In this document: positions 19,900-64,000 of the stretch, in pieces
How the letters are laid out: each line of letters opens with the position of its first letter
Position numbering within the stretch: the stretch's first letter is position 1
Source: the human T2T-CHM13v2.0 reference genome, Homo sapiens
Assembly (NCBI RefSeq): GCF_009914755.1
Contig: NC_060946.1
Direction: 5' to 3' (one strand)
Length of the DNA: 64,000 nucleotides
The notes under the pieces: generated by a model
Told to the model about the DNA's origin: nothing
Seen by the model: the letters and a program-made list of their open reading frames with translations, nothing else
Database searches by the model: none
Made by a program: the position numbers and the translations under genes

Positions 19900-20700
19900 C
19901 CGACGATTTCCGCCCCCAACGCCTCCACTTCTGACGCTCCTCGCAACTCCACGGCTGCTGCAAGTTAACTTCCACGCGCCCTGGCGCCCGCCTGGGGGTC
20001 CCCGCGCGCCTGGGCGAGGTTGGGGACTCCGGAGGCGGGGACGCGCCGCCCTCCCCCCCAGTCCCCCCGCCAACAGACGCTGAGCGTCTCCCAGGCGCTG
20101 GGTCCTAAGCGGGAAGCGTGGTAACGGGGGCCCGGTGGATGCCGCACCCCGCGGAAAGCGCTCGGGACGCCGAGCGGGTGCGGATCCCAGAACCGCGCGC
20201 CCGCGCCGCCTGCCTGCCTCCCAGATCCCAGCTCCCAGCCCCGGAGCCCGAGCAGTCGCGCCGGGCCCGGAGGCAGCCGCCAGGACGGAGGGCTGCCAGG
20301 CGCCCGAGGCCGACCCGCACGGCCCCCAGCCCGCGCCCCCGGCTGCAACCCGAGGCCACCCCCTGCCGCCCCAGGGCCACCTACCGTGGCGAGACGCGGC
20401 GAGGCAGCCCCACGCACCCAGCGACTCCCGGCTCTCCAGCCGCCCCAGCCGGGGAAGGGGGAGGTGCCCGCGCGGGGGCGGGGCCGCGGCGACGTGACGT
20501 ACGGGGGCGGGCCCGATACGCGGCCCCGCCCCGCCCCGCCCCATCCCCTCCACTGCGCCTCGGGACCGCGAGGTGAGCAGAGGCTGGTCGGGAAGTTTCC
20601 CGGAGGCTCGCCCCGGGAACCCCGCCCCGCCGCCCTGGAAGCCCCTGTCTGCTCGCTGGCTTACCCCTAGGACGGGCAGCTCACCACTTCTCCCGGTCAG
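19900..20700. promoter_or_regulatory. TPST2: CpG island / TATA-less promoter of TPST2
   Basis: Very GC- and CpG-rich block with several Sp/KLF GC boxes (GGGGCGGGG 20475-20483; (CCCCG)3CCCC 20524-20542) and a GACGTGACGTA CRE/E-box-like motif at 20491-20501. Gene identity comes from recalled gene order next to CRYBB1. Confidence 0.85.
20385..20480 (-). other. TPST2: Non-coding exon 1 of tyrosylprotein sulfotransferase 2 (5' end approximate); intron 1 runs off the left edge of the window
   Basis: Minus-strand donor GCCACG|gtaggt (GT = plus 20383-20384) just downstream of the GC boxes. No coding sequence in the window confirms the identity. Confidence 0.65.
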
Positions 20701-20919
20701 TTCTGTTTAAGAGAAGTTCCTTTCTGCCTGTAAGCAATGAAGTGGAATGATCACCAAAAAGTGGTGTAAGAAAAGAAAAGTAGACCCGCAGCGGGGTGTA
20801 TTCGTGCTACTGTTTGTGTAAAACACAGAAAAAAGAAAGGGGTGGTCTGATGTATAGTCATACACACCAGTGGTTTTGGAGGGAGTTTTTGTGGATATAC
20901 CACATTCTCTCCATTTATC

Positions 20920-36797: not shown

Positions 36798-37652
36798 AAT
36801 TAGATGGTTGGATCTCAGCCCTGGCTGCACAGACGGACTACTTAGAGGGCATAGAAAAGATAGCAGTGCCGGAGTTCCAGCCCTAGAGATTCAGAATTAA
36901 TTGGTCTGGGGTGGGGTCTAGGCTTTGAGATTTCTAAACATTTCTAATAACATATTTTATTTAAACAAATATACCTAAAATATTATAATTTCAATATGTA
37001 ACCAATATAATGATATCAATGCATTGTTGACATTCTTTAAAATTTTTTTTACTATGTATTCAAAACCTAATATGTATTTTACACTTATGACACATCTCCA
37101 TTTAGCCAAAATTCAAGTGTCCAATGGCCACATATGGCTACTGCCTATTATGTTGAATAGCAAGCTTCTAGAAGCTACTGGAAATGCCCTGGTTGATCAC
37201 TCTTCCAAACAAACCCCTTAACATAGGTTGGCATATAAGAACCATTCAATGATTGAGAGAGACATCTGTGAATTCTTACAGAGAGTGCATCATGAAGGCA
37301 AATAATTCAGTCTTACATTCTGCGAAAAGTGTTGGGAATGATCTGTTTGAATAATCCATTAAGATAAATTTGGTGATGTCAAAACAGCTGGTGGTTGGCA
37401 CTTGATAGCCTCAAATGCACATTCATGAAAATTCTTATAAATGTTCCCATCATGGAAGACAAAAGTCGGTTACCATCAGCAACTAACATTGGTGAGTAAG
37501 ATGTAGCTGGTTCATGACTCATCATCAACTTAATTCTGGAAAAAACTGTGAATCACTTGGAGATATCGCCACCATTTTGACCTTGAATCTTCTGGAAGTT
37601 GACTTAGTTAAATATTATAAGAAACTAATTCAGTATATTGTCTTATTATTAA

Positions 37653-52621: not shown

Positions 52622-52651
52622 AGATCTGACATGTTCCCTGGGCCTATCTCG
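52622..52651 (+). other. CRYBA4: CRYBA4 exon 1 (~30 nt, nominally 5'UTR; TSS approximate)
   Basis: Donor TCG|gtaagt (GT 52652-52653); starts ~27 nt after the TATA box. Confidence 0.85.
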
Positions 52652-53261
52652 GTAAGTCCCAGGTTTGGAGGAGGGGTGGGATCAGAGTTCTGAGTGAGCA
52701 TTCTGGGAGGCGAGGAACCCAGGTCCCCAGTCCTAGGGATGTCACTGTGTCATCCTGAATGCCATCCTCATCCTAACCAAGGATGAGCCCCAACCATCAA
52801 GACCAGCACCTGCTTCCCTCATTTAAAAACAAATTATTCCTGTAGCCCTATTGCCTAAATTTCCACCATCAGAGCTACCTCTTTGAGCTAGGTGCTGTCT
52901 TTGGAAGGGCTCTCTTATGCTGAGCATTTCAGCACTCGCTGGGGTGATGCACCCACCCACCAGCAGCCACAAAAATTTTCCCATAACAAGCAGATAAGAG
53001 AATACAGAGTGGGGCTCAGAGTCAATGAGACCCAGCAAGGGTGAGTTTTGAGATGGGGATAGGATGGAAGATGGCATTGGTGACAGATGGAAAGGACAGG
53101 AGAGGGACAGGCCAAAGCCATGCATTGCCCCTAGCCCAGTCACTCCTGGACTCCCTATGTGGATCCTGACCAGGTCCAAGCCAGCCATCTGCATAAAGAG
53201 GAGAGCAGAGGGTCAGGGTGGAAGATTATAATGTTCTTCTCTTCTGCAGGAAGGGGCCACA

Positions 53262-53300
53262 ATGACCCTGCAATGCACAAAGTCAGCGGGACCCTGGAAG
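53262..53300 (+). CDS. CRYBA4: betaA4-crystallin exon 2 coding part MTLQCTKSAGPWK (exon starts at 53250)
   Basis: Acceptor ctgcag at 53248-53249; Kozak GCCACAATGA; donor gtagga. Confidence 0.95.
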
Positions 53301-53649
53301 GTAGGAAGAGGCATGGGGAGGGGGTGTTCAGGGGGTATGGGGAGGGTTCAGGTCCCCATGAATCCTAGGAGGGGGGCATTATAAATGCCTATTTCACAGA
53401 GGTGCAATCAAGGCTCAGAGTTGAGAAGGGACTTGTATGTCACATACAGGGAGGTTGAATGTGAATTTGGGTCTTCTGGTTCCCAAAGTTGACCTGTTAC
53501 ACTCTTTGGCAGAGGTTGCAGTCTTTGGGCATGATTTCTTTGACCATCTCTGTGTGTGTTTGTTTGTTTTATAAAGCTTTTGGATTTATCATCAGCCTTT
53601 AAAAGCCTGGAAGAACCACATAAAAGTCCAGATCTAGTGATTGTCTTGA

Positions 53650-54018
<369 letters not shown>

Positions 54019-54535
54019 TGAGTCTAGGGGGACACTGAGTTGGGGTAGAGGGTGGACAGGAAGGGACCTAGAGACGGGTGCTAGGACTTTTAGATATTCT
54101 AGGTCCCCTCTCCCTAGGCTCTTACTGTTGTGCCCTCCTGAAGTACTGAGGAGTGTGCAGGACTGCCATGTAAGATTATGCAGGTTGCGCACTGCCCAAC
54201 AGTAGGAGGGTGCCATTTACACAGACCCTGCCCACTGGATGAGGCAGTTCTGCAGGAGATCCTTAGAATCCAGTGTTGGATCTAAAAATGTCCCTCCCAG
54301 CCGTAAATTGAAAGCCAACATCACCCGCCTAAAGTAGAAGGTAACTGTAAAAATAAACATAATGTTTTAATGCTATTAATTTTTAGCTAAATAGTCTTGC
54401 TGCTAAGCATGTGGCCTGATCATTTTTTGTAAAAAAAAAAAAATTAAAAAACAAAAAAGAGAGTGAGAGAGAGAGATTAGTGAGACACAGAGAGGTGTTA
54501 AGGACACACTAATAACACACCAAGACTTTCTAGAC

Positions 54536-54741
54536 CAGTGTCATTCAGTGGACCTGTCTGCAATGATGGAGATGTTCTACATCTACACCATCCATTTCAG
54601 AGCCACTGGCCAGATGTGACCATTGAGGATTTGAAAGGTAGCCAGCATGAGTAGAGAACTGAATCTTGTTTAATCTTAATTTATTTAAGTTTAAATTTAA
54701 TTAGCTACATATGGCCAGTGGCTACCATATTAGATAGAAGG
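54536..54741. mobile_element. MER3-like hAT-Charlie non-autonomous DNA transposon
   Basis: Resembles the MER3 consensus along its length; 8-bp hAT-type TSD TTCTAGAC (54528-54535) / TTCTAGAA (54742-54749). Confidence 0.75.
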
Positions 54742-55157
54742 TTCTAGAAGGTTGGAAAGCAGGTAGAAAGGAGATGTGGCCAGTAGCTACCATATTGGAT
54801 AGAAGGCTCTAGAAGTTTGGAAAGTAGTTGGAAAGATGTGGCCAGTAGCTACCATATTGGATAGAAGTTTCTAGAAGGCAGGAAAGTAAATAGAAAGGAG
54901 GTGTGGCCAGTAGCTACCATACTGGATAAAAGTTCTAGAAGTTTGGAAAGTAGATCGAAAGGAGATGTGGCCAGTAGCTTCCATATTGGATAGAAGGTTC
55001 TAGAAGGTTGGAAAGTAGCTAGAAAGGCAATGTGGCCAGTAGCTACCATATTGGATAGAAGGTTCTAGAAAGTTGGAAAGTAGATAGACAGGAGATGTGG
55101 CCAGTAGCTACCATATTGGATAGAAGGTTGTAGAAGTTTGGAAAGTAGATAGGAGAT
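54710..55157. repeat. Minisatellite, ~7 copies of a 61-66 bp unit (GTGGCCAGTAGCTACCATATTGGATAGAAGGTTCTAGAAGGTTGGAAAGTAGATAGAAAGGAGAT)
   Basis: Units start at about 54710, 54776, 54838, 54903, 54967, 55032 and 55097. Confidence 0.95.
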
Positions 55158-55842
55158 TTGGAGTCACTTAATGCTACACCTGTGAGTGCCACCTGAGGTC
55201 ATCTTGGGTGATTTTTGCACATCTCATGCTTTAGTAAATACTCTTTTAGCTTCTGATTTGTGCAGGTGGGGAATGGGGGTCAGATGGGAACAGAGGCTTT
55301 CTAGGGGTATGTCCAGCAGGCTGACAGACTCAGCCAGTAAGCAGACAATGAGCTTGGATAGATTCAGACAGTTTATTACTTATACAGACAGTAAAGGCAA
55401 GGTGTAGCCTCCTGTGTCCCTTGTCCTACTGGACGACACCAAAACAAAGGGGGCTGAATGACAGGCATTAGGAATGGTAGGAACCCCGTGGCTGAAGAGC
55501 TGCTTCCATGCTTCAACGATAGCTTGCTGCTGTCGCCTGTGGGGAGGCGAGGTGGAAAGCCCCACATCTCAGAGTGGCCAGAGAGGCAGATGAGGGGCTG
55601 CCTCGTGGCAGCCTCCCACAAGAGAGGGAGGAAAATGAGAGATGGCCATGCGGTCGCTCCTTGCAAGACTGCCCGTCTCCCACACCCTGGCAGGATCACG
55701 GGGAATTCCACCAAGGTGAGATCAGTCTGTGATCAGCTTTGCCTCCTTGGCCTCTGTGGACACGGACGGAGGAGCAAGGTTGTCAGGGCACCTGTGTGAA
55801 GCAGTTTCCCTACCTATGGGACACACAGCAAGTGAGGTCTAG

Positions 55843-56394
<552 letters not shown>

Positions 56395-56747
56395 TGACAA
56401 GGGCTGTTCAGTCTCTTTCCTCTCCAAGCCTCGGTTTCTTCATCTTGAAATGGGGCAATAGTACCAATGTTCTTGGGAAGAAGAACGTATAACATCTGAC
56501 CAGAGCCTGCCTTAAACTCTCTGCTCACAGCAACCCTGGTTGTGATAGGAGCCCCTGCCAGTTTTGTGCCCTTTTTTTTTTTGTGATTCAGGGACCCTGA
56601 GAGAATCTGGGTACCAGGGATGGTAGGGCCAAGTGGGGAGGAAAGGTTTCATTTCTTGCTCCTAATTCAGCATCAGTGCTCCTGATCTTACATTTTACTG
56701 CTGTTTTTGGAGTGTGGGTGGAGGTGGGCATTATTATTCCCATCTCA

Positions 56748-57130
<383 letters not shown>

Positions 57131-57214
57131 TTATTTTTCAATTCTTATTGATTTAAAATGACATAAGTCACCATATTTACCATCCAAAATTCTGAAGGAA
57201 AATCCTGCTATGGT

Positions 57215-57450
57215 CAGGGTTGAGTATCCCTTACCTGAAATGCTTGGGACCAGAAGTGTTTTGGATTTTGAATATTTTCCCCAGATTTTGCAATATTTGT
57301 AATACTTACAGTTGAGCAGCCTGAATCCAAAAATCCAAAATCTGAAATACTGCAGTGAGCATTCTTTGAGTGTCATGTCGTCACTCAAAAAGTTTTAGAT
57401 TTTGGAGCATTTTGGATTTCGGATTTTTAGGTTAGGGATGTTCAACCTAT
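57215..57450. mobile_element. Tigger4a/MER46-like TcMar MITE
   Basis: Inverted termini GGTTGAGTATCCCT ... AGGGATGTTCAACC with internal AATCCAAAA repeats. Confidence 0.7.
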
Positions 57451-57940
57451 ACATTTGTGTCTCTATGTATATACACATCCAAATCAACATCTACATCTAT
57501 ATCTGTATAATCTATATATCTTATCTATATTGCACACATAATTTTGTCATAAAATTGGAATCATAATGAATCTAAGGCTTGGAAACTAGCTTTTCTCACT
57601 GAGCAAATGTGTCGCAATCATCAGTCCAGGTGATTAAATCTCACTTCCATCGTTTTTCATAGCTCCCTAGTATTCTGTTTTGTGAATAAGTCCATTTGTT
57701 CATTTATTCTGCAAACAGTCTAGATATTGTGCTAATATAGGGACCCGTGGCGGGCTGCAACAGAAACAATCCCTCATTCCCAGCAGTTTGCAACTCCTGA
57801 TTTCATTTAGTCCTCAAAAGAACCCTGAAAAATGGGTAGGGTTAGTTTCATTTTATAGATACAGGAACAGAGGCTCAGAAATCCTGTCTAACCTCAGTCA
57901 GTTGGTAAGTGGCAGCTGCCTCCTAGCAGGAAGGATTTGA

Positions 57941-58590
<650 letters not shown>

Positions 58591-58914
58591 TAACCACAGT
58601 GTAATGCCTCAGCTTACCACTGGATCCCCAATTTTGGACATAAAAGTTGACTCCTTTTTTTGTTTGTTTGTTTTTGAAAAAACTGTTATGATGAACATTC
58701 TTGCAGCCTATTTATTCCATGATTATTTTCTTTGTGGAAATTTCTGGAAGGGCAAATGGCAAGGTTTCTGGTACCTGTTGCCTTATTGCCCTTCCAAAAG
58801 GTTTGCAAGGAAGGCTGATTTGGGAGACAAGGGCAGGGAGTGTGGAGGCCAGGAGAGGCTCCTGGGTTTCCAACTGGGAGCCTGCTGGTCTGACTGTGTT
58901 CCCTGTTCCTGTAG

Positions 58915-59058
<144 letters not shown>

Positions 59059-60013
59059 TAAGTGTATTCAAGGCTCTACCTGGCAGGGGAGGGGCTACTG
59101 GGAGGGGTAGGTGTACCTCCTGTGAAAACTGTGTGCTGGGGACTTTTGTGCTCTGATGCCCACATTTCAGAGGAGAACACTGAGGCACAGGGAGGTATCA
59201 GGCAGAATTTGAGGGACTGAAACCCAGATCAAACTGGTTTGAGCCCAGAAGATATTTATCAGCCCCTGTAATTAGCTTCAAGCATAGCTGGATCCAGGTA
59301 CTACAGCAGGTATCTCTCTCCCCCCACAACCCCCAACCTGTTGCCCTGCCTGCCTCTGTGTGACTATATTCTTAGACAAGCTCTTCCTGTGTGAAGGCAA
59401 AGGTGGCGGCTTCATCGTTACATCCAGCCCTAGGGAAAGACAGTGTCCAGGCTCAGTGATTCTATTAAAGGTTCCAAGAAAGGTGCTCATTGGTCCAGCT
59501 GGGTCCTGTGCTCAACTCTGAACCAATCATCATGCCCATAGGAATGGGGTGTTCTGATTGGCTAGGTTTGGTCATGTGGTCCATTGCTAGATTCAGCCTC
59601 ATTTTCTCACCTTGGCTGAGAGTGAGAGGCCACAGGCTCTTTGGCTAGAAGAGGGGAGAATGAATGCCCCTAGCCATAAAACACAGGTGTGGCTCCAGCA
59701 ACCTGCTCAAAGTCCATCAGCAGGTAGGTAACAATCCAGCTTCAAACTCAGCACTGACTGGCCCTTTCCTTTCCACCCAGGAGGTGGCAGGTGAAGGCTA
59801 AGGTGTGAGATTCTTATTTAGGGAGGACATCAGAACCACTTTCTGAGGTGCCCCTTGGCTCCTGGTAGGCAGGGGGCAAAGATGGGAGGTAGGGTTTTTC
59901 ATCTTTTTTTTTTTTCTTTTTTTGGCTTTAGTTTTCTCAGGAACCACCAAAGAATCATGTTGTTTTAGAGTAAGAGGGACCCCTTGTGATTCTTGAGTTC
60001 ACTTCCTCTTTTA

Positions 60014-60220
<207 letters not shown>

Positions 60221-60927
60221 TTAGCTGGGTGTCGTGGCTATGCCTCTAGTCCCAGCCACTCGGATGAGGCAGAATTACTTGAACCCAGGAGGCAGAGGTT
60301 GCAGTGAGCCGAGGTCATGCCACTGCACTCCAGTCTGGGCAACAGAGTGAGACTCTGTCTCAAAAAAAAGAAATCAATGAATTGAAATGATAGCTTTTTT
60401 TCTTGGAAGTGCCTCTGGATAAGGAAGGAGGGAGAAAGCGGAAAGAACAAGACTTCCCATTCCTTCACTTGTTCACTTATTCAGCAAATATTTAGGAACC
60501 CCTTCTTCCTTGCTAGACTTTTATATATTTACGCAGGTGGTGATAACGATGAACAAAACATACACGTTCTTACACTCAGGAGCTTGCCTGCTGGCAGGGG
60601 AGGCTGATATTTTACAAATAATTTGAAAACTATCGAATTACATGAGTGCTACAAAGGTATAATAAGGGACTGTGGCCTGATTTGGGGAACGAGTCAGATT
60701 GCCCTCATAATTAAGATGAGCCATGAAGGACAAATACAACTTGTCTAGGAAAAGAAAGGCTGGGATGGTGCTTCTGGCAAAGGGAATGGCATGATCAAAG
60801 GCCCTGTGGTAGGGGAGAGAGCATGGCACATTGTGAGCACTGAAGAAAGGCCAGGATGGCTGGAATTGTGTGCGTGTGCATAGATCCCTTTGCCCCTGTG
60901 TTGATCACCATGCTGGTGTCTCTGTAG

Positions 60928-61104
<177 letters not shown>

Positions 61105-61263
61105 ACAGGGGTGCGGCACGGAGGAGCGCATGCGTGCTTATCTGCAATGGAGGCGCTCTGGAGGCTGTGGTGTGTTCTCTCCTTCTGCCTCCCCCTGTAA
61201 CCTGTGTGAACCCAGCACCCATGTGAACTGGTCCGTGCACAGTCAGCACAAAAAACTCAAACG

Positions 61264-61269
61264 AATAAA
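61264..61269 (+). terminator. CRYBA4: CRYBA4 polyadenylation signal AATAAA
   Basis: 160 nt after the stop, followed by GU/U-rich sequence. Confidence 0.85.
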
Positions 61270-61289
61270 AAAGAGAAAGTCTGGTATTA

Positions 61290-62589: not shown

Positions 62590-63056
62590 TTTCATGCGCG
62601 TCCGTGTGAAGAGACCACCAAACAGGCTTTGTGTGAGCAATATGGCTGTTTATTTCACCTGGGTGCAGGCGGGCTGAGTCCAAAAAGAGAGTCAGCGAAG
62701 GGAGATAGGGGTGGGGCCATTTTATAGGATTTGGGAAGGTAATGGAAAATTACAGTCAAAGGGGGTTGTTCTCTGGTGGGCAGGGGTGGATCTCACAAAG
62801 TACTTTCTCAAGGGTGGGGAGAATTACAAAGAACCTTCTTAAGGGTGGGGGAGACTACAAAGTACCTTCTTAAGGGTGGGGGAGATTACAAAGTACATTG
62901 ATCAGTTAGGGTGGGGCAGGAACAAATCACAATGGTGGAATGTCATCAGTTAAGGCTGTTTTTACCTCTTTTGTGGATCTTCAGTTACTTCAGGCCATCT
63001 GGATGTATACGTGCAAGTCACAGGGGATGCGATGGCTTGGGCTCAGAGGCCTGACA
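62590..63056 (-). mobile_element. HERV-H solo LTR (LTR7 family, probably LTR7Y or LTR7B)
   Basis: Minus strand starts TGTCAGGCCTCTGAGCCCAAGCC and ends GCGCATGAAA; 5-bp TSD CTTCT on both sides; TATA at 62720-62726; ~31-bp internal tandem repeats. Confidence 0.9.
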
Positions 63057-63870
63057 CTTCTCATACCTTTTTTCTCTCTTCCCAATTCTCTCTCTCACAC
63101 ACACTACCCTGGAGTTTCTCATTTAACACCCTCCATGCTCCAAAGAAAGCCTATAAAACAAAGAAACCCCTGTTTCACTTGAAGACTAAGTGGCAGGATT
63201 GGTCTCTTCTATCTCTCTTTTTCTCCTCCCCTCCTTACTTTCTCCTGGTTCTGCATTTTATAGGTTGTCTAAACCTCTCTCATGAGCCCTCTAGCTCTTG
63301 TTTCAGGCTCTCTTGGCCCATCTTCCTCTGCCCACAAATGTCCCTGATCAGTCTGATAGGGACAGGAAGGGGTGGGGACCAGAACATTCTGCTGGAAAAG
63401 ATAACATTATCTGGCTCAGGAAGGGGAGGGGAATGTTTAGGAACATTTGCGCCTCAGTAAATTTTAACTCCTCATTGTATCATACCATTTATTCAACAGA
63501 TCATTTGCCTGGGACATACAATGGTAAACATGACACCTAAAGTTTTTTCTCCCACTCAGTTTAATGGGGAATGAATGCGGAAAAGTACAGAGCTGTTTGC
63601 AAATATTCTATGATAGGGGCTGTGGGGGCGGGAAGCATGGGGTTGGGGGCGGACCCTTCTTGTGCCTACCTCTACTCAGACCGTCCCAGAACATCTGACC
63701 ACTTGCTTGACACCTTGATGTGAATGTCTAATACACATCTCAAACAAAACCGGACCAAACATAACTGAAGCTACACTTTTCAAGTTGTTCAGGCTAAATG
63801 TCTGGAATGATCCATAACCCTTCTCTTTCTCTCACACCTCACATTCTAATCCATTGGCAATTCCTACTAG

Positions 63871-63999
<129 letters not shown>

Positions 64000-64000
64000 T

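What the first reader, a model, noticed from the sequence alone, without database searches (positions are those of the whole stretch)
54710..55157. Transposon-born minisatellite forms a 7-copy heat-shock-element array inside a lens crystallin gene
Seen: each ~65-bp unit is the last ~30 bp of the adjacent MER3, then its TSD (TTCTAGAA), then ~25 bp of flank, so a transposon/host junction was tandemly amplified. The junction spells aGAAggTTCtaGAAg, a canonical three-unit HSE (nGAAnnTTCnnGAAn). Four copies are perfect (54736-54750, 54863-54877, 54992-55006, 55057-55071) and three have one mismatch (54801-54815, 54927-54941, 55122-55136). Established: HSF4 is the lens-fibre heat-shock factor that regulates crystallins and is a cataract gene, and HSF trimers bind HSE clusters cooperatively. 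Inference: this may be a copy-number-variable HSF1/HSF4 enhancer ~2.1-2.5 kb from the CRYBA4 TSS and ~6 kb from the CRYBB1 TSS. I am not aware of it being described.
Basis: partly seen in the sequence, partly recalled or inferred. Interest (0 to 1): 0.8.

Follow-up and report, generated by a model that had tools for sequence, protein, structure and literature searches.

The report
Transposon-born heat-shock-factor docking array in CRYBA4
A short tandem repeat inside a lens crystallin gene, made by copying the edge of an old transposon seven times, carries seven heat-shock-factor binding motifs and is listed as bound by HSF1 in published data from stressed human cells, but whether it controls the crystallin genes is still unknown.

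Summary
Window 54712-55152 is a 65-bp minisatellite of 6.8 copies. Each unit is 30 nt of the 3' tail of a ~206-bp hAT-type MITE, then its 8-bp target duplication TTCTAGAA, then 27 nt of flank. Published HSF1 ChIP-seq peak lists place a broad peak over the array in 5 of 5 lists inspected: MCF7 and K562, heat and arsenite (PMC10654513), and an earlier K562 set (PMC5557961). The enhancer claim is not shown. In K562 the site is classed "noHD", an untranscribed HSF1 target, and no dTRE boundary falls there in the K562 or MCF7 sheets. The motif bases are no better kept than the rest of the unit. CRYBA4 gene-body nascent transcription rises about 4.3-fold in heat-shocked K562 without TSS activity. 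HSF4, lens activity, copy-number variation and primate distribution could not be tested. Verdict: a real HSF1 docking array, undescribed in text, with regulatory function open.

The parts
54528..54535 (+). Left 8-bp target-site duplication (TTCTAGAC) of the transposon
   Evidence: Read. Its position next to the family's 5' terminus is shown by the alignment of 17 genomic copies. It matches the right duplication at 7 of 8 bases.
54536..54741 (+). ~206-bp non-autonomous hAT-type transposon fossil (MER3-like; the name is recalled, not tested)
   Evidence: 45 matches in the own genome, 39 outside this locus at 69-88% identity. Termini and flanks aligned. Internal 17-nt inverted repeat 54601-54617 / 54707-54723. 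42 of 197 positions differ from the majority of 17 copies.
54742..54749 (+). Right target-site duplication TTCTAGAA, the palindromic core of the heat shock element
   Evidence: The published hAT target motif is WWNNTYTARANNWW with an 8-bp duplication (PMC2836564, Discussion passage).
54712..55157 (+). 65-bp minisatellite, 6.8-7 units. Each unit is 30 nt of transposon tail, 8 nt of duplication and 27 nt of host flank.
   Evidence: The unit is unique to this locus in the genome search, apart from one 57-nt match at 81% on another chromosome.
54736..54750 (+). HSE 1, perfect (aGAAggTTCtaGAAg)
54801..54815 (+). HSE 2, one mismatch (TTC>CTC)
54863..54877 (+). HSE 3, perfect
54927..54941 (+). HSE 4, one mismatch (GAA>AAA, with a 1-nt deletion just before it)
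54992..55006 (+). HSE 5, perfect
55057..55071 (+). HSE 6, perfect
55122..55136 (+). HSE 7, one mismatch (TTC>TTG)
54709..54714 (+). ATATGG, upstream member of a short imperfect direct repeat that brackets the founding 65-bp segment
   Evidence: Printed. The partner ATTTGG lies at 55156-55161. That it seeded the first duplication by slippage is inference.
55156..55161 (+). ATTTGG, downstream member of the bracketing direct repeat, at the end of the array

Best explanation
This is a transposon-junction minisatellite that works as a multi-site docking platform for heat shock factors.

Origin. An old hAT-type MITE inserted into a TTCTAGAN target, the kind of palindrome this superfamily prefers. 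The duplicated target supplied TTCnnGAA. A one-base loss and a C>A change in the transposon's last bases supplied a correctly spaced third GAA. The 65-bp junction segment is bracketed by a short AT(A/T)TGG repeat. It was then duplicated by slippage or unequal exchange to seven units, probably tens of millions of years ago.

Action. In stressed human cells HSF1 occupies the array (shown by published ChIP-seq lists). In those non-lens cells it sits among the 'untranscribed' HSF1 targets and does not fire as a transcribed enhancer.

My reading is that it is mainly an opportunistic, evolutionarily unconstrained binding array with at most a modest local effect. One such effect could be the heat-induced intragenic CRYBA4 transcription seen in K562. 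I do not think it is a required crystallin enhancer.

Shown: anatomy, origin, motifs, HSF1 occupancy. Inferred: order of mutations, slippage mechanism, age, lack of selected function.
For: Anatomy and origin.

HSF1 occupancy (PMC10654513 Supplementary Data 2, hg19):
- chr22:27019782-27020581 (MCF7 heat)
- chr22:27019804-27020624 (MCF7 arsenite)
- chr22:27019684-27020706 (K562 heat)
- chr22:27019712-27020682 (K562 arsenite)
PMC5557961 Supplementary Data 3 adds chr22:27019645-27020885.

Mapping. Aligning the hg19 CRYBA4 TSS (27017928) with window 52628 puts the array at about 27020012-27020452. All five intervals cover that range. Peak centres map to window 54881-54914 and the array centre is 54932. 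The CRYBB1 TSS maps consistently, within 6 bp.

Peak width. The array peak is 799-1022 bp wide in the four PMC10654513 lists. It is the second widest of the 21 rows shown around it for MCF7 heat and the widest of 21 for K562 heat. That fits several occupied sites.

Internal control. A single perfect HSE at 58737-58749 in the same gene has no peak in any of the 4 lists.

Against selected function:
- noHD class in K562.
- No dTRE boundary in the interval.
- Motif bases are not better conserved than the rest, 3/63 versus 23/380, p = 1.
- Lens expression of CRYBA4/CRYBB1 from a shared promoter region is described in chicken and stated to be shared with mouse and human (PMC8897925 passages). Basal lens expression therefore does not look dependent on this repeat. 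That those species lack the array is my inference, not tested.
Against: CRYBA4 coding-strand gene-body PRO-seq rises from 3.39 to 14.63 RPK (4.3-fold) after 30 min of heat in K562. It is labelled UpNoTSS. This is the class the authors removed because the change may come from run-over transcription, an internal TSS or an internal regulatory element. CRYBA4 is also in the K562 heat 'up' list of a second laboratory. So the array may do something locally.

The transposon-tail plus duplication half of the unit has a third of the substitution density of the flank half: 8/261 versus 17/181, Fisher p = 0.006. That could reflect constraint on the half that holds the motif.

No lens data of any kind could be consulted. 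In lens fibres the gene is highly active and HSF4 is abundant, so behaviour there may differ from K562 and MCF7.
Confidence: 0.6

Rival explanations
1. Lens enhancer. In lens fibre cells, where the locus is open and HSF4 is the dominant heat shock factor, HSF4 trimers load onto the seven elements. The array would then boost CRYBA4, and possibly CRYBB1, as a primate-specific intronic enhancer whose strength scales with copy number.
For: The motifs are ideal three-unit HSEs. A family member, HSF1, binds them in vivo even in closed chromatin. Hsf4 motifs are among those enriched in open chromatin of mouse lens, and Cryba4/Crybb1 show stronger ATAC peaks in fibres (PMC6498704 abstract and passages). 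HSF4 binds the HSE of the Cryab promoter (cited in PMC5737492 passages). The motif-bearing half of the unit changes more slowly than the flank half, p = 0.006.
Against: No HSF4 or human lens dataset was found. The search HSF4 + ChIP-seq + lens + heat shock element gave 9 papers, 8 listed, and none reports HSF4 ChIP-seq in lens by title or abstract. Motif bases are not specially conserved. The paper on the mouse Cryba4-Crybb1 pair does not contain the word Hsf4 (0 occurrences). The site is untranscribed in the two cell lines examined.
Confidence: 0.2
2. Stress-inducible intragenic start site. HSF1 bound at the array recruits polymerase weakly and launches sense transcription through the downstream part of CRYBA4 in stressed non-lens cells. 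This would explain heat induction without promoter activity.
For: CRYBA4 is UpNoTSS in K562: pause-region signal goes 56.0 to 34.9 RPK while gene-body signal goes 3.39 to 14.63 RPK. CRYBA4 is in K562_HS_up_promoters of PMC10654513.
Against: dREG-HD called no initiation at the array: noHD and no dTRE boundary. The absolute signal is very low. Run-over transcription from upstream is an alternative the authors themselves name. CRYBA4 appears in only 1 of the 4 'up' lists of PMC10654513, although HSF1 is bound in all 4. Mouse Cryba4 is also induced by heat and by MG132 in fibrosarcoma cells (PMC3127947 Discussion passage), so heat inducibility may not need this array.
Confidence: 0.15
3. Artefact. 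The ChIP-seq peaks are a mapping or pile-up artefact of a tandem repeat and HSF1 does not really bind.
For: The site is repetitive. PMC10654513 mentions nonspecific pile-ups at some high-signal sites (passage).
Against: The unit is single-locus in the genome search. The peak recurs in two laboratories with different data sets, two cell lines and two stresses. It carries four perfect motifs. A second, non-repetitive transposon-junction HSE in the same window, at 37166, is also under a peak in 4 of 4 lists.
Confidence: 0.04

Closest known systems
Untranscribed HSF1 target regions (Vihervaara et al. 2017, PMC5557961)
   Same: HSE-containing, heat-induced HSF1 binding outside promoters and dTREs, with no initiation before or after 30 min of heat. 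This locus is literally a row of that list with the label noHD.
   Different: The paper treats the class in bulk. In the text I searched it does not describe this locus, its tandem-repeat nature, its transposon origin or its position in a crystallin gene.
Satellite III (HSATIII) arrays bound by HSF1 in nuclear stress bodies
   Same: Tandemly repeated DNA carrying heat-shock-element-like motifs that recruits HSF1 on stress. In the genome scan, most pairs of perfect HSEs 40-65 nt apart lie in GGAAT-type arrays on contig C9. The link to stress bodies is from my knowledge and from the listing of review PMC8535310 (listing only).
   Different: Those are very large pericentromeric satellites built on a 5-nt unit, and they are strongly transcribed on stress. 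This is a 440-bp euchromatic, intronic, single-locus minisatellite that was untranscribed in the cell lines examined.
Transposon-derived minisatellites (Ahmed and Liang 2012, PMC3389668)
   Same: A tandem repeat whose unit derives from a transposable element. The paper reports that at least 7,276 tandem repeats, 23% of human minisatellites and satellites, derive from transposable elements. Some are initiated between short flanking direct repeats (abstract and section 3.4 passage).
   Different: Here the unit spans the element/host junction, including the target duplication and unique flank. The amplified junction is a transcription-factor site with documented occupancy.
Canonical HSE of the alphaB-crystallin (CRYAB) promoter bound by HSF4
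   Same: A heat shock element in a crystallin gene. HSF4 is the lens heat shock factor (PMC5737492 passages).
   Different: That is a single promoter-proximal element tied to the gene's small-heat-shock-protein ancestry. This is an intronic seven-copy array in a beta-crystallin gene, born from a transposon, and HSF4 binding was not tested.

Membership tests
Heat shock element / HSF1 target site | At least three contiguous inverted nGAAn pentamers | tested here: met
   Four exact and three one-mismatch matches to GAANNTTCNNGAA in the array.
Heat shock element / HSF1 target site | Stress-induced HSF1 occupancy in vivo | tested here: met
   Peaks cover the mapped array in 5 of 5 published lists inspected. 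I saw peak coordinates only, not signal tracks or input.
Heat shock element / HSF1 target site | HSF-dependent activation of a linked gene | tested here: inconclusive
   CRYBA4 gene-body PRO-seq is up 4.3-fold in K562 but labelled UpNoTSS. It is in 1 of 4 'up' lists of PMC10654513. No HSF1-knockdown data were seen.
Transcribed enhancer (dTRE) | Divergent unstable nascent transcription called by dREG | tested here: not met
   Labelled noHD in K562. No chr22 dTRE boundary between hg19 27,019,600 and 27,020,799 in the dTRE file of PMC10654513 (sheet names). Non-lens cells only.
Lens HSF4-dependent enhancer | HSF4 occupancy and open chromatin in lens fibre cells; reporter or deletion effect | not testable with these tools
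   No human lens or HSF4 genome-wide data could be reached. The paper on HSF4 binding regions in mouse lens (PMC2662063) is not held.
hAT-superfamily non-autonomous transposon (MER3-like) | Dispersed family with terminal inverted repeats | tested here: met
   45 matches in the own genome, 39 outside this locus. Shared termini in the alignment of 17 copies. Internal inverted repeat.
hAT-superfamily non-autonomous transposon (MER3-like) | 8-bp target-site duplication of the NTYTARAN type | tested here: met
   TTCTAGAC and TTCTAGAA, 7 of 8 alike. The motif is as published in PMC2836564.
hAT-superfamily non-autonomous transposon (MER3-like) | Match to the curated MER3 consensus (Dfam or Repbase) | not testable with these tools
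No repeat library is held.
Transposon-derived minisatellite | Head-to-tail array whose unit is homologous to a transposable element | tested here: met
   Unit 1 is continuous with the element body and keeps the family's G at unit position 9, where units 2-7 share A.
Copy-number-variable VNTR | Different unit counts among human haplotypes | not testable with these tools
   Only one assembly is held. The only hint is that CRYBA4 spans 8,709 bp in the hg19 table row and 8,659 bp in this assembly (hub table). The 50-bp difference is of unknown location.

The most novel reading that the evidence does not exclude
The array is a primate-lineage, transposon-born HSF4/HSF1 enhancer of the CRYBA4-CRYBB1 pair in lens fibre cells. 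Its unit number would tune beta-crystallin dose, and so cataract risk. More broadly, the hAT transposase's taste for TCTAGA-type targets would have seeded heat-shock-factor sites at transposon edges across the genome. Both independent TTCTAGAA origins in this window are hAT 3' junctions, and both lie under HSF1 peaks.
Probability: 0.12. Interest if true: 0.8.

Novelty: new member of a known kind. Interest (0 to 1): 0.5.

Why it matters
HSF4 is a cataract gene and beta-crystallin dose matters for lens transparency. An HSF-occupied seven-site array 2 kb inside CRYBA4 is therefore a concrete, testable candidate for non-coding or copy-number effects on crystallin expression.

It is also a clean worked example of how a transcription-factor platform can arise with no pre-existing regulatory sequence. 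The steps were a transposase's target preference, two small mutations at the element's edge, and tandem amplification.

It also gives a face to the poorly understood class of 'untranscribed' HSF1 targets. At least this one is a repeat-born motif cluster strong enough to be bound in closed chromatin, while a lone perfect motif 3.6 kb away is not.

Tried and rejected
1. Selection on the motif. The nine specified bases are not better kept than other positions: 3/63 versus 23/380, p = 1; an earlier count gave 3/63 versus 30/384, p = 0.6. I dropped the idea that the HSEs are under detectable purifying selection among units.

2. A genome-wide link between TTCTAGAA and intact hAT termini. TTCTAGAACAG occurs 3,305 times on both strands, which is 1.3% of the 246,540 sides of 123,270 TTCTAGAA sites. 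The reversed control gives 2,046 of 124,238 sides, or 1.6%. There is no enrichment, so this crude test does not support the general idea. Old termini are mutated, as here, so the test is weak.

3. Uniqueness of HSE-bearing tandem repeats. This was rejected. Pairs of perfect HSEs 40-65 nt apart occur 116 times against 22 for the control, in satellite arrays on C9 and in several other minisatellites.

4. Earlier findings of this scan were not open to the session.

5. Papers not held: PMC2662063 on HSF4 binding regions and PMC1832089 on the ages of human DNA transposons.

6. The first number-prefix search of the supplements, 270199-270204, found no chr22 row in either paper. The peaks were found only after widening the prefixes, because they are broader than the array.

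7. Not readable: the PDF supplements of both papers and one oversized xlsx of PMC10654513. They may hold class definitions or further peak data.

8. The hub table names 6 RefSeq enhancers 'and 5 more'. I could not see whether one of the unlisted five overlaps the array.

Full report
THE OBSERVATION

The sequence at 54300-55500 holds a head-to-tail array. Tandem Repeats Finder reports 54712-55152 with period 65, 6.8 copies, 86% matches and 2% indels. The repeat finder also sees a two-unit periodicity of 127 nt.

The pattern GAANNTTCNNGAA matches exactly 7 times in the 64-kb window. Shuffles give a mean of 0.77, and 0 of 100 reach 7. Four of the matches are in the array, at 54737, 54864, 54993 and 55058. 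With one mismatch allowed, the remaining three units appear at 54802, 54928 and 55123. The statistical excess is real, but it reflects one motif copied seven times.

WHAT THE UNIT IS MADE OF

A search of the window's own genome with 54525-54760 returned 45 matches. Thirty-nine lie outside this locus at 69-88% identity, and most end at query position ~213, which is window ~54737. An alignment of 17 of these copies with their flanks shows a ~210-bp family. It begins CAGTGCTGTCCAAT..., ends ...TATTGGACAGCRCAG, and is flanked by 8-bp duplications that cluster around nTCTAGAn. This agrees with the published hAT target motif WWNNTYTARANNWW with an 8-bp duplication (PMC2836564, Discussion passage).

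In the window the element is 54536-54741. The left duplication is TTCTAGAC (54528-54535) and the right one is TTCTAGAA (54742-54749). The name MER3 could not be tested because no repeat library is held.

Each array unit is 30 nt of the element's tail, then the duplication, then 27 nt of host flank. Unit 1 is continuous with the element. It keeps the family's G at unit position 9, whereas units 2-7 share A, so they descend from one founder duplicate.

The founding 65-bp segment is bracketed by ATATGG (54709-54714) and ATTTGG (55156-55161). That is the arrangement expected if slippage or unequal exchange between short direct repeats started the array. This mechanism is discussed for transposon-derived tandem repeats in PMC3389668 (section 3.4 passage). 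That it happened here is inference.

HOW THE MOTIF AROSE

The palindrome TTCTAGAA supplies two of the three pentamers. It is simply the target duplication.

The third GAA comes from the element's last bases. Family copies read GACAGCRCAG before the duplication, which leaves three bases between GCA and TTC and is out of register. This copy reads GATAGAAGG. It is one base shorter and has C>A.

A second, related element in the same window shows the unmodified state...AATAGCAAGC followed by TTCTAGAA at 37166. The three-unit element therefore needed the transposase's target choice plus two small later mutations. All units share those mutations, so they predate amplification or were homogenised. The order of events is inference.

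AGE AND CONSTRAINT

Units differ from their majority sequence at 5.7% of aligned positions. The element body differs from the majority of 17 family copies at 42 of 197 positions, or 21%. The array is therefore much younger than the insertion, but it is not recent. With commonly used mammalian neutral rates (my knowledge, not a tool result) this means tens of millions of years. I predict that the array is shared at least among apes and Old World monkeys. No other eukaryote genome is held, so this is untested.

The nine specified motif bases are not better kept than other positions: 3/63 versus 23/380, p = 1. However, the element-tail plus duplication half changes about three times more slowly than the flank half: 8/261 versus 17/181, p = 0.006. 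I cannot explain this difference. It is not specific to the motif.

IS IT BOUND?

This is the decisive result, and it comes from published supplementary tables read here.

PMC10654513 (Nat Commun 2023) gives HSF1 ChIP-seq peaks in hg19 on four sheets (sheet names). Each sheet has one broad peak at this locus:
- MCF7 heat: chr22:27019782-27020581
- MCF7 arsenite: chr22:27019804-27020624
- K562 heat: chr22:27019684-27020706
- K562 arsenite: chr22:27019712-27020682

PMC5557961 (Nat Commun 2017) uses an earlier K562 HSF1 data set. It lists chr22:27019645-27020885 among HSF1 targets outside promoters.

I mapped hg19 to the window through the CRYBA4 TSS. The hg19 position 27017928, from the gene table rows, corresponds to window 52628 in the hub table. 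The CRYBB1 TSS maps consistently, within 6 bp. The array then lies at about 27020012-27020452, inside all five intervals. The peak centres fall within 20-50 bp of the array centre.

Because CRYBA4 is 8,709 bp in hg19 and 8,659 bp here, the mapping may be off by up to ~50 bp. That does not change the overlap.

The array peaks are among the widest rows shown in their neighbourhoods, as expected for several occupied sites.

A lone perfect motif at 58737-58749 in the same gene has no peak in any of the four lists. Multiplicity, or the TTCTAGAA core, therefore seems to matter.

I saw coordinates only. I did not see signal, input or unstressed tracks.

DOES IT ACT?

In PMC5557961 the locus carries the label noHD, meaning no dREG-HD element. 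The text describes such sites as HSE-containing 'untranscribed HSF1 target regions' in closed chromatin.

In PMC10654513 no dTRE boundary lies between 27,019,600 and 27,020,799 on chr22 in any sheet of the dTRE file. A single dTRE longer than 1.2 kb that spans the whole interval would have been missed.

So in two non-lens cell lines the array is bound but is not a transcribed enhancer.

Against a purely inert reading, CRYBA4 coding-strand gene-body PRO-seq rises from 3.39 to 14.63 RPK in heat-shocked K562, while the pause-region signal does not rise (56.0 to 34.9 RPK). The gene is labelled UpNoTSS. The methods say such genes were set aside because the change may stem from run-over transcription, an internal TSS or an internal regulatory element. 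CRYBA4 is also in the K562 heat 'up' sheet of PMC10654513, but in none of the other three sheets.

Mouse Cryba4 is reported as induced by both heat and MG132 in fibrosarcoma cells (PMC3127947, Discussion passage). This suggests that heat responsiveness of the gene may not depend on this array.

LENS AND HSF4

Nothing could be tested. Papers on lens chromatin show fibre-enriched ATAC signal at Cryba4/Crybb1 and enrichment of Hsf4 motifs in mouse (PMC6498704). They also show a shared demethylated, open promoter region in chicken (PMC8897925). None mentions an intronic element of this kind. The paper on the mouse Cryba4-Crybb1 pair does not contain the word Hsf4. I found no HSF4 genome-wide data for lens. 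The paper on HSF4 binding regions in mouse lens is not held.

CONTEXT IN THE GENOME

The unit is single-locus. Pairs of perfect motifs 40-65 nt apart occur 116 times genome-wide, against 22 for the reversed control. Most are in GGAAT-type satellite arrays on contig C9. Several others are in euchromatic-looking minisatellites on C2, C7, C8, C16 and C20. HSE-bearing tandem repeats are therefore a small class, not a singleton.

I found no text that describes such minisatellites as HSF targets. Only a satellite III review holds HSF1, minisatellite and heat shock element together in the listing. No text links HSF1 to hAT target duplications: the search gave 4 papers, none relevant by title.

VERDICT

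The claim that the array is a crystallin enhancer is not supported by the non-lens data and remains open for the lens.

I file it as a new, well-characterised member of known kinds: a transposon-derived minisatellite and an untranscribed HSF1 target. It is a good lead for lens biology.

Noticed in passing
window 37085-37185 (TTCTAGAA at 37166-37173): A second, related hAT-type element ends here with the same target duplication, TTCTAGAA, followed by gcTACtgGAA. That makes a four-unit HSE with one mismatch. It maps under HSF1 peaks in 4 of 4 lists of PMC10654513 (hg19 chr22:27002271-27002773 and three similar intervals). The narrowest of these, 27002349-27002660, excludes the nearby perfect HSE at 37422. 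All six TTCTAGAA sites in the window (two independent origins) are hAT 3' junctions.
   Followed up: partly
window ~63000-64000 (hg19 chr22:27028332-27028940 and 27028373-27029359): An HSF1-bound site just downstream of CRYBA4 is classed as a dTRE in K562 (PMC5557961 file 3). It is present in the two K562 peak lists but not the two MCF7 lists. It overlaps the RefSeq transcriptional_cis_regulatory_region 63093-63843. Only a one-mismatch HSE (63431-63443) was found there.
   Followed up: partly
window 58737-58749: A single perfect three-unit HSE (GAAATTTCTGGAA) in CRYBA4 intron 4 has no HSF1 peak in any of the four lists. It serves as an internal control showing that one perfect motif in this gene is not enough.
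   Followed up: partly
window ~20400-20900 (TPST2 promoter; hg19 chr22:26986061-26986486): An HSF1 peak sits at the TPST2 promoter in all four lists. TPST2 gene-body PRO-seq is up 1.75-fold (UpHC) in heat-shocked K562. Overlapping one-mismatch HSEs lie at 20587-20604. The MCF7 heat list has five peaks between hg19 26,986,061 and 27,051,901. That is about 66 kb, against roughly one per 170 kb on average for ~18,000 peaks.
   Followed up: no
own genome (T2T contigs C2:37525064-37525452, C7:48473597-48473715, C7:75206557-75206724, C8:779956-780086, C8:1554935-1555172, C16:95241344-95241511, C20:24856841-24857133): These are other tandem repeats with two or more perfect three-unit HSEs per 40-65 nt spacing, besides the GGAAT satellite arrays on C9. 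Whether HSF1 binds them was not checked.
   Followed up: no
own genome, whole: TTCTAGAA occurs 123,270 times, twice as often as its reversed palindrome AAGATCTT (62,119). The excess is unexplained. Adjacency to an intact CAG terminus is not enriched (1.3% versus 1.6% of sides).
   Followed up: partly
window 54712-55157, within units: Substitution density is 3.1% in the transposon-tail plus duplication half of the unit and 9.4% in the flank half (8/261 versus 17/181, p = 0.006). The slow half includes far more than the HSE, so constraint on something other than HSF binding, or a mutational bias of the purine-rich flank, is possible.
   Followed up: partly
window 52628-61286 (CRYBA4): The gene spans 8,709 bp in the hg19 rows of the published table and 8,659 bp in this assembly. 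The location of the 50-bp difference is unknown. It could lie in the minisatellite or in the poly-A/AG tract at 54430-54476.
   Followed up: no
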